Assembly: GCF_048403405.1 (NCBI RefSeq)
Contig: NZ_CP183129.1
Length of the DNA stretch: 64,000 bases
Reading direction: 5' to 3' (one strand)
Source of the DNA: Escherichia coli
GTDB taxonomy: Bacteria; Pseudomonadota; Gammaproteobacteria; Enterobacterales; Enterobacteriaceae
The notes below the pieces were generated by a model. The model did no database searches, was not told the origin of the DNA, and saw only the letters and a program-made list of their open reading frames with translations. Below are positions 56,660 to 58,329 of this stretch, piece by piece. Both the position numbers and the translations under genes were made by a program. Each line of letters opens with the position of its first letter. Position 1 is the stretch's first letter.

Positions 56660-58033
56660 TTATTTTAATAACCGCACCCGGCACGTTTTTCCTTTAATCT
56701 TCCCGCCCTGTAACTGTTTCCATGCTTTATGAGCAACAGCCTGACGCACCGCGACATAGACATGCGCCGGATGCACGGCGATTTTGCCAATATCTGCGCC
56801 ATCAAGCCCGATATCTCCTGTCAGCGCACCTAATACATCACCCGGGCGCATTTTGGCTTTTTTCCCGCCATCGATACATAACGTTGCCATTTCGGCTTCC
56901 AGCGGCACAATGGAACTATTAACTGGTGGCGTTTGCCAGTTAAGTTTTATCTGCAACATGTCAGAAATGATATTGGCCCGCTGTGCTTCTTCCGGGGCAC
57001 AGAAACTGATCGCCAGACCGCTATTTCCTGCACGCGCTGTACGACCGATGCGATGTACATGAACTTCAGGATCCCACGCCAGCTCAAAGTTCACCACCAG
57101 CTCAAGCGATTTAATATCCAGACCTCGCGCAGCAACATCAGTCGCAACCAGTACACGGGCGCTACCGTTAGCAAAACGTACCAGGGTCTGATCGCGATCG
57201 CGTTGCTCCAGATCGCCGTGTAACGACAATGCACTTTGCCCTACTTCATTCAGCGCGTCGCAGACAGCCTGGCAATCTTTTTTGGTATTGCAAAACACCA
57301 CACAAGAGGATGGCTGATGCAAGCTTAATAACCGTTGCAACAGAGGAATTTTGCCTTTACTGGATGTCTCATAAAATTGTTGTTCAATGGGTGGCAAAGC
57401 ATCTGTTGAGTCAATTTCAATCGCTAAAGGATCGCGTTGCACTCGTCCGCTGATTGCGGCGATGGCTTCCGGCCAGGTTGCCGAAAACAGAAGCGTCTGT
57501 CGAGATGCAGGCGCAAAACGGATGACATCATCAATGGCATCGCTAAATCCCATATCCAGCATGCGGTCGGCCTCATCCATCACCAAAGTATTCAGCGCAT
57601 CCAGTGATACCGTGCCTTTTTGCAAGTGATCCAGCAAACGACCCGGCGTTGCCACGATAATATGCGGCGCATGTTGCAACGAATCACGCTGCAAACCGAA
57701 CGGTTGACCACCGCACAACGTCAAAATTTTAGTATTTGGTAGAAAACGCGCCAGCCGACGCAATTCACCTGCCACCTGATCCGCCAGTTCACGCGTAGGA
57801 CACAGCACTAAAGCCTGGGTTTGAAATAGCGACGCATCAATTTGCTGTAACAAGCCGAGGCCAAAAGCCGCCGTTTTGCCGCTGCCGGTTTTCGCCTGCA
57901 CGCGAACATCTTTTCCGGCAAGGATCGCCGGAAGCGCGGCGGCCTGCACCGGCGTCATGGTTAAATAACCCAACTCATCAAGGTTCGTGAGTTGGGCGGG
58001 AGGCAAAACATTCAGGGTAGAAAAAGCGGTCAC
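56660..58033 (-). CDS. dbpA: ATP-dependent DEAD-box RNA helicase DbpA
   Basis: 457 aa; AKTGSGKT and DEAD motifs; GTG start. Confidence 0.95.
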   Translation of the reverse strand: MTAFSTLNVLPPAQLTNLDELGYLTMTPVQAAALPAILAGKDVRVQAKTGSGKTAAFGLGLLQQIDASLFQTQALVLCPTRELADQVAGELRRLARFLPNTKILTLCGGQPFGLQRDSLQHAPHIIVATPGRLLDHLQKGTVSLDALNTLVMDEADRMLDMGFSDAIDDVIRFAPASRQTLLFSATWPEAIAAISGRVQRDPLAIEIDSTDALPPIEQQFYETSSKGKIPLLQRLLSLHQPSSCVVFCNTKKDCQAVCDALNEVGQSALSLHGDLEQRDRDQTLVRFANGSARVLVATDVAARGLDIKSLELVVNFELAWDPEVHVHRIGRTARAGNSGLAISFCAPEEAQRANIISDMLQIKLNWQTPPVNSSIVPLEAEMATLCIDGGKKAKMRPGDVLGALTGDIGLDGADIGKIAVHPAHVYVAVRQAVAHKAWKQLQGGKIKGKTCRVRLLK

Positions 58034-58062
58034 AATCTATTCTCGTGGTCATCGACGCAAAG

Positions 58063-58236
58063 TCAGCAGGCGCGTATCCTCGCAGATCTACGCTCACGAT
58101 GCGACAATTTAATCGGTTCTTCATCGGGTGGTGGGTCAGGCATGGGTTGCGGGCGAGGGATCGGATCGGGCACTGGAACAGGATCGCCAGGAATCGGTTC
58201 AGGGACAGGAATTTGCAAATAAATAAGTGTCGTCAT
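58063..58236 (-). CDS. proline-rich small protein (57 aa), unassigned
   Basis: translated by hand: MTTLIYLQIPVPEPIPGDPVPVPDPIPRPQPMPDPPPDEEPIKLSHRERRSARIRAC; GGAGGG SD 4 nt before ATG; stop 30 nt before the dbpA start. Confidence 0.45.
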   Translation of the reverse strand: MTTLIYLQIPVPEPIPGDPVPVPDPIPRPQPMPDPPPDEEPIKLSHRERRSARIRAC

Positions 58237-58329
58237 ATTTCCCTCCGGTCATTGGGTGGACTCTTAAAGGGTAGACGCTGATAAATAACAGGCAAAATAA
58301 ATATCCTCCGGCATAGCCGGAGGTTTTTC

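What the first reader, a model, noticed from the sequence alone, without database searches (positions are those of the whole stretch)
58063..58236. Proline-rich 57-codon ORF with strong SD directly upstream of dbpA
A minus-strand ORF below the track cutoff encodes a protein built from PxP/PVP repeats followed by a basic tail, preceded by GGAGGG 4 nt from the ATG and ending 30 nt before the dbpA GTG start. The DNA shows a roughly 9-nt periodicity from the repeated codons. It could be a small proline-rich protein, or a leader ORF whose polyproline-like stretches stall ribosomes and modulate expression of the downstream helicase.
Basis: seen in the sequence. Interest (0 to 1): 0.45.

Follow-up and report, generated by a model that had tools for sequence, protein, structure and literature searches.

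The report
Known small protein gene ynaL
This ORF is ynaL, an already annotated and experimentally detected 57-residue proline-rich small protein gene lying between the FnrS small RNA and the dbpA helicase gene in E. coli and its relatives; its function is still unknown, and its 'basic tail' is most likely dbpA promoter DNA that happens to be translated.

Summary
The ORF at 58063..58236 (-) is real and is ynaL ("proline-rich small protein YnaL", WP_001296046.1; Pfam PF23677, 136.9 bits). It is identical to the K-12 protein and present in 5391 of 5426 complete E. coli genomes. VanOrsdel et al. 2018 showed its translation by chromosomal SPA-tag immunoblot. The description is mostly right: 16/57 Pro, 12 PxP, one PPP, GGAGGG 4 nt before the ATG. 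Two details are wrong: the gap to the dbpA GTG is 29 nt, and the DNA periodicity is 6 nt, not 9.

Across 71 Enterobacteriaceae species the frame, ATG and SD are kept. Codons 16-40 show peptide-level selection. Codons 41-46 and 50-56 (the "basic tail") are frozen at all three positions, even in 13 species where an earlier stop ends the ORF. Those frozen blocks stay with dbpA in Kluyvera, which lost the ORF. They align with a clear sigma-70 promoter where dbpA has moved elsewhere. The Pro-rich ORF stays next to fnrS in two genera where dbpA is no longer downstream.

So a small protein is supported. An obligatory polyproline leader for dbpA is weakened but not excluded. Already known; low interest.

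The parts
58063..58236 (-). ynaL coding sequence (57 codons plus TGA), proline-rich small protein YnaL
   Evidence: ORF listing and translation. RefSeq annotation WP_001296046.1, identical in strain 4621 and K-12. Pfam PF23677 at 136.9 bits, E=2.1e-40. Immunoblot evidence in PMC6001520.
58241..58246 (-). Shine-Dalgarno GGAGGG, 4 nt upstream of the ynaL ATG (K-12 allele is AGAGGG)
   Evidence: Sequence. SNP against K-12. An SD core of GGAGG or better is kept in most of 71 species.
58114..58191 (-). Pro-rich core, codons 16-41 (PGDPVPVPDPIPRPQPMPDPPPDEEP), under amino-acid-level purifying selection
   Evidence: Mean column entropy over codons 16-40 in 71 species is 0.23 / 0.20 / 1.33 bits for codon positions 1 / 2 / 3. 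The 12 Pro codons average 1.49 bits at position 3. AlphaFold2 models residues 21-40 as an extended chain with pLDDT about 90 and no secondary structure.
58126..58134 (-). PPP (codons 35-37) within DPPPD, a consensus EF-P-dependent stalling motif
   Evidence: PPP is kept in 67 of 71 species and DPPPD in 64 of 71. It is lost in E. albertii, two Citrobacter and one C. amalonaticus. Motif strength is taken from PMC4176338.
58099..58116 (-). Frozen element A (CCGATTAAATTGTCGCAT, ynaL codons 41-46), conserved at the nucleotide level; likely the upstream part of the dbpA promoter region (-35 / UP-like) or a partner of the dbpA start region
   Evidence: Entropy is 0.15 / 0.13 / 0.15 bits at codon positions 1 / 2 / 3. 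It is retained in Kluyvera although the ORF is deleted. RNAalifold pairs GUCGCA with the dbpA UGUGAC, but both sides are invariant, so there is no covariation.
58069..58089 (-). Frozen element B (AGATCTGCGAGGATACGCGCC, ynaL codons 50-56, the 'basic tail'): inferred dbpA core promoter, with extended -10 TGcGAGGAT (TG 58083..58084, hexamer 58076..58081) and GC-rich discriminator ACGCGCC (58069..58075)
   Evidence: Entropy is 0.04 / 0.18 / 0.04 bits, including the rare codons AGA, AGG and ATA. The element is unchanged in 13 species with an in-frame stop at codon 47 or 48. It is identical in Kluyvera, which lacks the ORF. It aligns with ATGACC-17 bp-TGCTAGAAT-GCGCGCC upstream of relocated dbpA in L075, L077, L079 and L080. 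No experimental TSS was retrieved.
58034..58062 (-). 29-nt spacer between the ynaL stop and the dbpA GTG; contains the weak, invariant dbpA SD-like GAGA (58041..58044)
   Evidence: No terminator-like site lies between the genes.
56660..58033 (-). dbpA (ATP-dependent RNA helicase DbpA), GTG start
58268..58275 (-). Invariant TCTACCCT box about 37 nt upstream of the ynaL ATG (candidate -10 TACCCT); function unresolved
   Evidence: It is kept in the detached (L077, L079) and ORF-deleted (Kluyvera) arrangements. No consensus RNA structure was found.
59009..59126 (-). fnrS (FnrS sRNA), the conserved upstream neighbour of ynaL
   Evidence: Rfam RF01796 at 134.8 bits. Synteny in nearly all loci.
58296..59006 (-). 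IS200C insertion (about 711 bp, +/-2) inside the FnrS terminator T-tract, separating fnrS from ynaL in this strain
   Evidence: Alignment to K-12. RefSeq tnpA annotation. STnc490 Rfam hit. Only 9 of 5426 genomes cover the junction.

Best explanation
The ORF is ynaL, a genuine, translated, vertically inherited small-protein gene of Enterobacteriaceae.

Its functional part is the roughly 25-residue acidic Pro-x-Pro core (DP-x-P repeats ending in PRPQPMPDPPPDEEP). This core is selected as a peptide and is predicted to be an extended polyproline-II-type rod rather than a folded domain. It most likely acts in trans as a small ligand or spacer for a partner that is not yet known.

The gene always sits directly behind the fnrS terminator. 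In most genera it runs into dbpA. The last third of the ORF (codons 41-57) is not selected as protein. It is dbpA regulatory DNA, most likely the dbpA promoter: an extended -10 TGcGAGGAT, a GC-rich discriminator, and a start site at about the ynaL stop codon. The ynaL frame simply reads through it. That would explain the frozen nucleotides, the rare codons and the dispensable 'basic tail'.

Shown here or in the literature: identity, translation, conservation, and the two regimes of selection. Inferred: trans action, the partner, and the promoter assignment.
For: Identity and translation:
- RefSeq annotation and 100% protein identity to K-12 YnaL.
- Pfam PF23677 at 136.9 bits against a cut-off of 27.
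- 162 protein clusters, all carrying PF23677, all Enterobacteriaceae.
- SPA-tag immunoblot and tetracycline ribosome-profiling detection (PMC6001520).

Conservation:
- The region is present in 5391 of 5426 E. coli genomes at 95% identity or more.
- An ORF with the aligned ATG and an SD is present in 70 of 71 species sampled through dbpA, independently of YnaL.
- Rare length variants are all in-frame.
- Antisense frames are open in only 16 and 11 of 71 species.

Peptide selection:
- Codons 16-40 have entropy 0.23 / 0.20 / 1.33 bits at positions 1 / 2 / 3.

Nucleotide-level tail:
- Codons 41-46 and 50-56 have about 0.04-0.18 bits at all positions.
- They persist after premature stops in 13 species.
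- They persist in Kluyvera without the ORF.
- They are homologous to ATGACC-17-TGCTAGAAT-GCGCGCC at relocated dbpA genes. There the hexamers are conserved and the spacer is free.

Independence from dbpA:
- Dryocola (L077, 49 aa) and Atlantibacter (L079, 43 aa) keep a YnaL-like ORF right after fnrS. It is convergent with ttcA, and dbpA lies elsewhere.

Structure:
- AlphaFold2 gives pTM 0.23, no DSSP elements, and a core pLDDT of about 90.
Against: - No function, partner or phenotype is known for YnaL. Only one paper in the searchable library discusses it.
- The trans-acting role is inferred only from peptide-level conservation and from two rearranged genomes, in which the C-terminal half of the core has diverged.
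- The promoter assignment lacks an experimental start site (retrieved nothing).
- The E. coli-type -10 hexamer GAGGAT matches only 3 of 6 positions, and the best -35 (TTGTCG) sits at a poor 20-bp spacing.
- The tool's promoter scan found no site in the region.
- The near-invariant DPPPD motif next to a helicase gene with a weak SD and a GTG start is what a coupling leader would look like.
Confidence: 0.6

Rival explanations
1. Cis-acting polyproline leader. On transcripts that start upstream of ynaL, ribosomes must translate through DPPPD with the help of EF-P. Only ribosomes that pass it reach codons 44-47 and open a weak pairing between that region and the dbpA SD and GUG. Synthesis of the DbpA ribosome-assembly helicase would then be coupled to EF-P or proline-tRNA status.
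For: - DPPPD is kept in 64 of 71 species and PPP in 67 of 71.
- PPP flanked by Asp is a strong EF-P-dependent context (PMC4176338).
- dbpA has a GTG start and only a GAGA SD-like box.
- No terminator lies between the genes.
- RNAalifold and duplex folding pair GUCGCA (codons 44-46) with UGUGAC at the dbpA start. Native 5'/3' partners pair slightly better than permuted ones (-7.0 against -6.28 kcal/mol).
- VanOrsdel et al. suggest an operon.
Against: - dbpA seems to have its own promoter downstream of the PPP codons.
- Kluyvera lost the ORF but kept dbpA and the frozen elements.
- Relocated dbpA genes have the same weak SD and GTG without any leader ORF.
- The Pro-rich ORF persists with no downstream gene in L077 and L079.
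- The stop-to-start distance varies from 14 to 63 nt.
- PPP was replaced (PSP, PPQ) in 4 species with everything else intact.
- The proposed helix has no covariation, and the permutation test is not phylogeny-corrected.
- Conservation of about 25 residues exceeds what a PPP stall needs.
- Full-length tagged protein accumulates.
Confidence: 0.15
2. Anaerobic companion of FnrS. ynaL has no strong promoter of its own and is expressed mainly by read-through of the fnrS terminator, or from zntB. YnaL would then be a protein member of the FNR response, linked functionally to fnrS rather than to dbpA.
For: - ynaL starts about 58 nt after the FnrS terminator in essentially every genome. It stays there when dbpA is elsewhere.
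- zntB, fnrS, ynaL and dbpA are all on the same strand.
- No convincing promoter was found in the interval.
Against: - The FnrS terminator is a strong hairpin with a T8-9 tract.
- YnaL-SPA was detected in ordinary LB cultures.
- An invariant TCTACCCT box could be a -10 element.
- In this very strain an IS200C with its own terminator-like hairpins sits between fnrS and ynaL, yet the ORF and SD are intact.
- No expression data were examined.
Confidence: 0.15
3. Not a gene: the ORF is a by-product of conserved non-coding DNA (promoter or leader sequences of dbpA) that happens to be open.
For: The 3' third of the ORF is indeed conserved as nucleotides rather than as codons.
Against: - Codons 16-40 show the classic coding signature: positions 1 and 2 fixed, position 3 near saturation.
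- The ATG and SD are conserved in 70 of 71 species.
- Indels are in-frame only.
- There is immunoblot and ribosome-profiling evidence.
Confidence: 0.02

Closest known systems
YnaL, proline-rich small protein (E. coli K-12 b4743 region; WP_001296046.1; Pfam PF23677)
   Same: Identical 57-aa sequence. Same position between fnrS and dbpA. Same strand relationship. Full-length match to the family model.
   Different: Nothing at the protein level. In this strain the SD is GGAGGG instead of K-12's AGAGGG, and an IS200C separates the gene from fnrS.
Proline-codon leader peptides MgtL and MgtP of Salmonella mgtA and mgtCBR (from my own knowledge of the literature, not checked here)
   Same: A short ORF with Pro codons upstream of a regulated gene. 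EF-P and proline-tRNA status can change how far ribosomes get.
   Different: - Those leaders lie inside a long 5' leader with well-defined alternative stem-loops and are much shorter.
- Here no covarying alternative structures were found.
- The downstream gene appears to have its own promoter within the ORF.
- The ORF survives without the downstream gene.
- The peptide is conserved over about 25 residues.
TonB proline-rich spacer (Glu-Pro / Lys-Pro repeats; Pfam PF16031, NCBIfam NF008084)
   Same: An alternating X-Pro composition that gives an extended, rigid polyproline-II-like segment.
   Different: Only a compositional resemblance. Scores are 20.8 bits against a cut-off of 315 (NCBIfam) and 11 bits against 33 (Pfam). 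There is no TonB transmembrane or C-terminal domain.
Proline-rich antimicrobial peptides (oncocin, Bac7, apidaecin) that bind the ribosomal exit tunnel (from my own knowledge)
   Same: Short peptides with PRP / PxP motifs. A ribosome-related neighbourhood, since dbpA acts on 23S rRNA.
   Different: Those peptides are strongly cationic and are host-defence products. The YnaL core is acidic (D/E-rich). There is no sequence match to any solved structure.

Membership tests
YnaL family (Pfam PF23677 / RefSeq 'proline-rich small protein YnaL') | Sequence matches the family model above its gathering score over its full length | tested here: met
   136.9 bits against a cut-off of 27, E=2.1e-40, residues 1-57 on profile positions 1-57 of 57. 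100% identical to WP_001296046.1 of K-12.
YnaL family (Pfam PF23677 / RefSeq 'proline-rich small protein YnaL') | Genomic position between fnrS and dbpA, same strand | tested here: met
   Annotated regions. FnrS by Rfam. In this strain an IS200C is inserted between fnrS and ynaL.
YnaL family (Pfam PF23677 / RefSeq 'proline-rich small protein YnaL') | The ORF is translated into a detectable product | not testable with these tools
   Reported for K-12 by chromosomal SPA tag and immunoblot, and by tetracycline ribosome profiling (PMC6001520). The sequence here is identical.
Regulatory leader peptide (attenuation or coupling type, e.g. MgtL/MgtP, SecM, TnaC) | The ORF lies on the same transcript, upstream of the regulated gene, and that transcript is the main source of the gene's expression | tested here: inconclusive
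   No terminator lies between ynaL and dbpA. However, a conserved promoter-like element for dbpA lies inside the ynaL 3' end. No TSS data were retrievable.
Regulatory leader peptide (attenuation or coupling type, e.g. MgtL/MgtP, SecM, TnaC) | Conserved alternative RNA structures, or a structure occluding the downstream start, that respond to ribosome position | tested here: inconclusive
   Only a 6-bp helix, GUCGCA:UGUGAC, between invariant segments. There is no covariation. Native against permuted duplex energy is -7.0 against -6.28 kcal/mol, without phylogenetic correction.
Regulatory leader peptide (attenuation or coupling type, e.g. MgtL/MgtP, SecM, TnaC) | The leader and the regulated gene co-occur: the leader is kept only with the gene, and the gene keeps the leader | tested here: not met
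   Kluyvera has dbpA without the ORF. L075, L077, L079 and L080 have dbpA elsewhere without it. L077 and L079 have the ORF without dbpA downstream.
Regulatory leader peptide (attenuation or coupling type, e.g. MgtL/MgtP, SecM, TnaC) | A stalling determinant (here consecutive prolines) is present and conserved | tested here: met
   PPP in 67 of 71 species and DPPPD in 64 of 71. Motif strength per PMC4176338. Actual stalling was not tested.
TonB (proline-rich region) | Match to TonB models above cut-off, with transmembrane and C-terminal domains | tested here: not met
   20.8 bits against 315 (NF008084) and 11 bits against 33 (PF16031). The protein is only 57 aa.

The most novel reading that the evidence does not exclude
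On read-through transcripts from upstream, ynaL works as an EF-P / proline-sensing coupling leader. Only ribosomes that get past the invariant DPPPD reach codons 44-47 and free the weak dbpA initiation region. Production of a 50S-assembly helicase would then be tied to the cell's capacity for peptide-bond formation, in parallel with a stringent-type (GC-rich discriminator) dbpA promoter embedded in the same codons.
Probability: 0.12. Interest if true: 0.55.

Novelty: already known. Interest (0 to 1): 0.15.

Why it matters
As a discovery it does not matter much. ynaL has been in RefSeq and Pfam for years, and its product was detected in 2018.

What remains open is what a strictly conserved 25-residue acidic Pro-x-Pro peptide does. 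The comparative picture built here narrows the options for anyone who studies it:
- The functional unit is the core peptide, not the basic tail.
- The gene tracks fnrS rather than dbpA when the locus is rearranged.
- The last 17 codons are best read as dbpA promoter or leader DNA. Tagging or deleting the ynaL 3' end, as in C-terminal SPA tagging, may therefore disturb dbpA expression.

If the embedded promoter with a GC-rich discriminator is confirmed, it would also give a simple rationale for growth-phase control of DbpA.

Tried and rejected
- **23S rRNA hairpin-92 mimic** in the dbpA leader (DbpA autoregulation). The best local alignment of the leader to 23S scores 17, against 19.3 +/- 2.1 for shuffles. 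Rejected.
- **Tandem DNA repeat with 9-nt period.** TRF finds none, and lag-9 identity is depleted. Rejected.
- **Conserved RNA structure in the ynaL 5' UTR.** The apparent ACCCU...AGGGU hairpin gave no consensus pairs in RNAalifold.
- **Conserved structure linking the ynaL 3' end to the dbpA start.** Only an invariant 6-bp helix, so inconclusive.
- **Coding on the opposite strand.** The 76-aa and 78-aa plus-strand ORFs are open in only 16 and 11 of 71 species. Rejected.
- **TonB relationship.** Compositional only.
- **Solved-structure homologues.** None.
- **Experimental TSS or 3'-end tables** (Thomason 2015, Cappable-seq, SMRT-Cappable-seq, Conway 2014, Adams 2021). Not held, or no entries for dbpA, fnrS or ynaL.
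- **Literature linking EF-P, ynaL and dbpA.** None found.
- **Simple sigma-70 scan of 57900..59300.** No hits at its thresholds.
- **A ynaL promoter** (-35 TTGCCT / 16 bp / -10 TACCCT). It fits most species, but the spacing breaks in L024, L035 and Kluyvera. Left unresolved.

Full report
**What is there**

On the minus strand, 58236..58063 is an ATG-to-TGA ORF of 57 codons. It encodes MTTLIYLQIPVPEPIPGDPVPVPDPIPRPQPMPDPPPDEEPIKLSHRERRSARIRAC.
- It has 16 prolines (28%), twelve overlapping PxP triplets and one PPP at residues 35-37.
- GGAGGG lies 4 nt upstream of the ATG.
- The stop is followed by 29 nt, not 30, before the GTG of dbpA.
- Among all 417 ORFs of at least 40 aa in the window it is the extreme outlier. 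Its Pro fraction is 0.281 against 0.059 +/- 0.039, and its PxP count is 12 against a next-best of 6.
- The '9-nt periodicity' is wrong. Base identity is enriched at lags 6, 12 and 18 and depleted at lag 9 (0.233 against 0.323 in codon shuffles). That pattern reflects a Pro-x dipeptide repeat.
- Tandem Repeats Finder reports no array.

**Identity**

The window is E. coli, with the gene order ttcA, dbpA, zntB, dgcM.
- A megablast of the region against 5,426 complete E. coli genomes shows the ORF annotated everywhere as ynaL, 'proline-rich small protein YnaL'.
- The protein, WP_001296046.1, is identical in the 100%-matching strain 4621 and in K-12 MG1655.
- Pfam has a dedicated family, PF23677 'YnaL', matched over residues 1-57 at 136.9 bits against a cut-off of 27.
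- NCBIfam returns only a sub-threshold compositional hit to the TonB Pro-rich region.
- A search of 5.8 billion proteins found 162 clusters. All carry PF23677, all are from Enterobacteriaceae, and many are already named YnaL.
- VanOrsdel et al. 2018 (PMC6001520) list exactly this sequence at MG1655 1409308-1409481, between fnrS and dbpA. They detected it by a chromosomal SPA tag and immunoblot. They note it was also positive in a tetracycline ribosome-profiling screen, and they suggest it may form an operon with dbpA.
- No other paper in the searchable library discusses it, and none links it to EF-P.

The finding is therefore a rediscovery of a known gene of unknown function.

**Conservation, sampled independently of YnaL**

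I fetched 80 loci through DbpA, one per species, and examined what lies upstream of dbpA.
- In 71 species a YnaL-like ORF of 45-64 aa ends 14-63 nt before the dbpA start. These include Escherichia, Citrobacter, Enterobacter, Klebsiella, Raoultella, Kosakonia, Leclercia, Lelliottia, Salmonella arizonae, Superficieibacter and Pseudocitrobacter.
- The aligned ATG is kept in 70 of 71 species, and an SD core of GGAGG or better in most.
- Within E. coli the region is present at 95% identity or more in 5391 of 5426 genomes.
- Rare length variants are all in-frame slips between the short repeats: 46, 42 and 68 aa in E. coli, and 70 aa in Salmonella.
- Antisense frames are open in only 16 and 11 of 71 species.

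**Two regimes of selection inside one ORF**

| ynaL codons | Entropy at codon positions 1 / 2 / 3 (bits) | Reading |
|---|---|---|
| 2-15 | 1.45 / 1.16 / 1.76 | variable |
| 16-40 | 0.23 / 0.20 / 1.33 | selected as peptide |
| 41-46 (CCG ATT AAA TTG TCG CAT) | 0.15 / 0.13 / 0.15 | frozen as nucleotides |
| 47-49 | 1.16 / 1.30 / 1.51 | variable |
| 50-56 (AGA TCT GCG AGG ATA CGC GCC) | 0.04 / 0.18 / 0.04 | frozen as nucleotides |

These values come from the 71-species nucleotide alignment.
- In codons 16-40 the twelve Pro codons average 1.49 bits at position 3. This is the signature of purifying selection on the amino-acid sequence.
- In the frozen blocks, fourfold-degenerate sites and the rare codons AGA, AGG and ATA are also fixed.
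- In 13 species an in-frame stop at codon 47 or 48 already ends the ORF, yet the downstream 'codons' 50-56 are unchanged.

The 'basic tail' is therefore conserved as DNA or RNA, not as protein.

**What the frozen elements are**

Three natural rearrangements are informative.
- **Kluyvera (four genomes).** The SD and codons 1-40 are deleted. Both frozen blocks remain, intact and in place, between the FnrS terminator and dbpA.
- **Cedecea, Dryocola, Atlantibacter and an 'Enterobacter sp.' (L075, L077, L079, L080).** dbpA lies elsewhere. The homologous position upstream of it reads AAATGACC - 17 bp - TGC TAGAAT (or TAGACT, TAGCAT) - GCGCGCC. That is a good sigma-70 promoter with an extended -10 and a GC-rich discriminator. 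The hexamers are conserved and the spacer is free.
- **The E. coli-type sequence aligns to it as TGC GAGGAT ACGCGCC.** TG at -15/-14 and the A2/T6 positions of the -10 hexamer are kept in every promoter-region alignment I inspected across these loci.

I therefore read codons 50-56 as the dbpA core promoter, with a start site at about the ynaL stop and a 5' UTR of about 30 nt.

Caveats on this reading:
- It is an inference, which I put at about 0.65.
- GAGGAT matches only 3 of 6 positions.
- The best -35 (TTGTCG) has a 20-bp spacer.
- The simple promoter scan found nothing.
- I could not retrieve any experimental TSS table.

A GC-rich discriminator is the classical mark of stringently controlled promoters (established knowledge). 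One proteomics paper reports DbpA higher in exponential than in stationary phase (PMC13393375), which is compatible but weak support.

**The Pro-rich ORF tracks fnrS, not dbpA**

Rfam places FnrS at 59009..59126.
- In essentially all loci the ynaL ATG lies about 58 nt after the FnrS terminator.
- In Dryocola (L077) and Atlantibacter (L079) a YnaL-like ORF still sits right after fnrS. It is convergent with ttcA, and dbpA is about 2 kb away behind other genes.
  - L077, 49 aa: MTYHRGIFMSDPTPSDPVPNPDPFPKPQPIPDPPVDPDPKPIIDPPPHM
  - L079, 43 aa: MITTLSDPVPTDPVPVPDPIPRPQPITEPTPDPGPILAAPPQR
- These copies lack the IKLSH...RSARIRAC end. That fits the idea that this end belongs to dbpA.

What transcribes ynaL is unresolved. 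An invariant TCTACCCT box about 37 nt upstream of the ATG could be a -10 element, but its spacing to a -35 is not conserved and no RNA structure is detected. Read-through from fnrS or zntB remains possible.

**The leader hypothesis**

In favour:
- DPPPD is kept in 64 of 71 species.
- PPP flanked by Asp is a strong EF-P-dependent context (PMC4176338).
- dbpA has a GTG start and a weak GAGA box.
- No terminator lies between the genes.
- A 6-bp helix can form between GUCGCA (codons 44-46) and UGUGAC at the dbpA start. Native partners pair slightly better than permuted ones, -7.0 against -6.28 kcal/mol.

Against:
- The embedded promoter lies downstream of the PPP codons.
- The ORF was lost in Kluyvera, while the same weak dbpA initiation region is kept.
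- Relocated dbpA genes have no leader ORF.
- The ORF persists without dbpA in two genera.
- The stop-to-start distance ranges from 14 to 63 nt.
- PPP was replaced in four species.
- The helix shows no covariation.
- The peptide is conserved far beyond a stall motif.
- Full-length tagged protein accumulates.

I give the leader model about 0.15 as the main function. It remains testable.

**Protein properties**

AlphaFold2 with a 40-sequence alignment gives pTM 0.23 and no secondary structure. Residues 21-40 are modelled as an extended chain with pLDDT of about 90. No PDB sequence relative exists. The core is acidic, and the N-terminus is short, hydrophobic and variable. The most economical reading is a small extended polyproline-II-type peptide acting in trans on an unknown partner. 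This is inference.

**Strain-specific features**

Compared with K-12, this strain carries an IS200C of about 711 bp at about 58296..59006.
- It is inserted inside the FnrS terminator T-tract (T8 becomes T6) and lies between fnrS and ynaL.
- Only 9 of 5,426 genomes cover that junction.
- The ynaL SD is GGAGGG here and AGAGGG in K-12.

**Verdict**

- The 'small protein' reading is right and already known.
- The 'leader' reading is weakened but not excluded.
- Novelty: already known.
- The added value is the dissection of the ORF into a peptide-selected core and a nucleotide-selected dbpA promoter or leader region, and the finding that the gene is linked to fnrS.

Noticed in passing
window 58296..59006 (-), junctions at about 59006/59007 and 58293-58296: An IS200C copy (tnpA 58405..58863; IS200 5'-UTR RNA STnc490 at 58873..58996) is inserted inside the U-tract of the FnrS terminator. 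This shortens it from T8 to T6 and separates fnrS from ynaL. Only 9 of 5,426 complete E. coli genomes cover this junction. Effects on the FnrS 3' tail or on ynaL/dbpA expression are unknown.
   Followed up: partly
window 58246 (-): A SNP in the ynaL Shine-Dalgarno: GGAGGG in this strain against AGAGGG in K-12 MG1655.
   Followed up: partly
window 58268..58275 (-): An invariant TCTACCCT box about 37 nt upstream of the ynaL ATG. It is kept even in Kluyvera (ORF deleted) and in Dryocola and Atlantibacter (ORF detached from dbpA). It is a candidate -10 (TACCCT), but the spacing to a -35 is not conserved and no RNA structure is detected.
   Followed up: partly
L076, L078, L081, L082 (Kluyvera), about 130 nt upstream of dbpA: A clean deletion of the ynaL SD and codons 1-40. 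The two frozen nucleotide blocks stay intact between the FnrS terminator and dbpA. This amounts to a natural 'ynaL knockout' that spares the dbpA elements.
   Followed up: yes
L077:1005-1154 and L079:508-639: In Dryocola and Atlantibacter a YnaL-like Pro-rich ORF stays directly after fnrS, convergent with ttcA. dbpA sits about 2 kb away behind other genes and has its own clear sigma-70 promoter (ATGACC-17-TGCTAGAAT).
   Followed up: yes
proteins P0001, P0088, P0112, P0053; locus L005: Rare in-frame length variants of YnaL produced by slippage between the short PxP repeats: +11 residues (DPVPVPDPIPR duplicated), -11 and -15 residues in E. coli, and +10 residues in Salmonella.
   Followed up: partly
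protein P0041 (one E. coli genome): A 65-aa variant in which YnaL codon 43 is fused to an out-of-frame reading of the dbpA 5' region. This is a natural deletion that removes both frozen elements and the ynaL-dbpA spacer. The consequences for dbpA are unknown.
   Followed up: no
window 60219..60266 (-): RefSeq annotates a 15-codon ORF ('protein YnaN') 13 nt upstream of zntB. It is another very small annotated ORF in this neighbourhood.
   Followed up: no
window 58264..58328 (+): A weak Rfam hit to Yersinia sRNA Ysr202 (29.5 bits against a gathering score of 315). It overlaps the terminal hairpin of the IS200C and is almost certainly noise.
   Followed up: no
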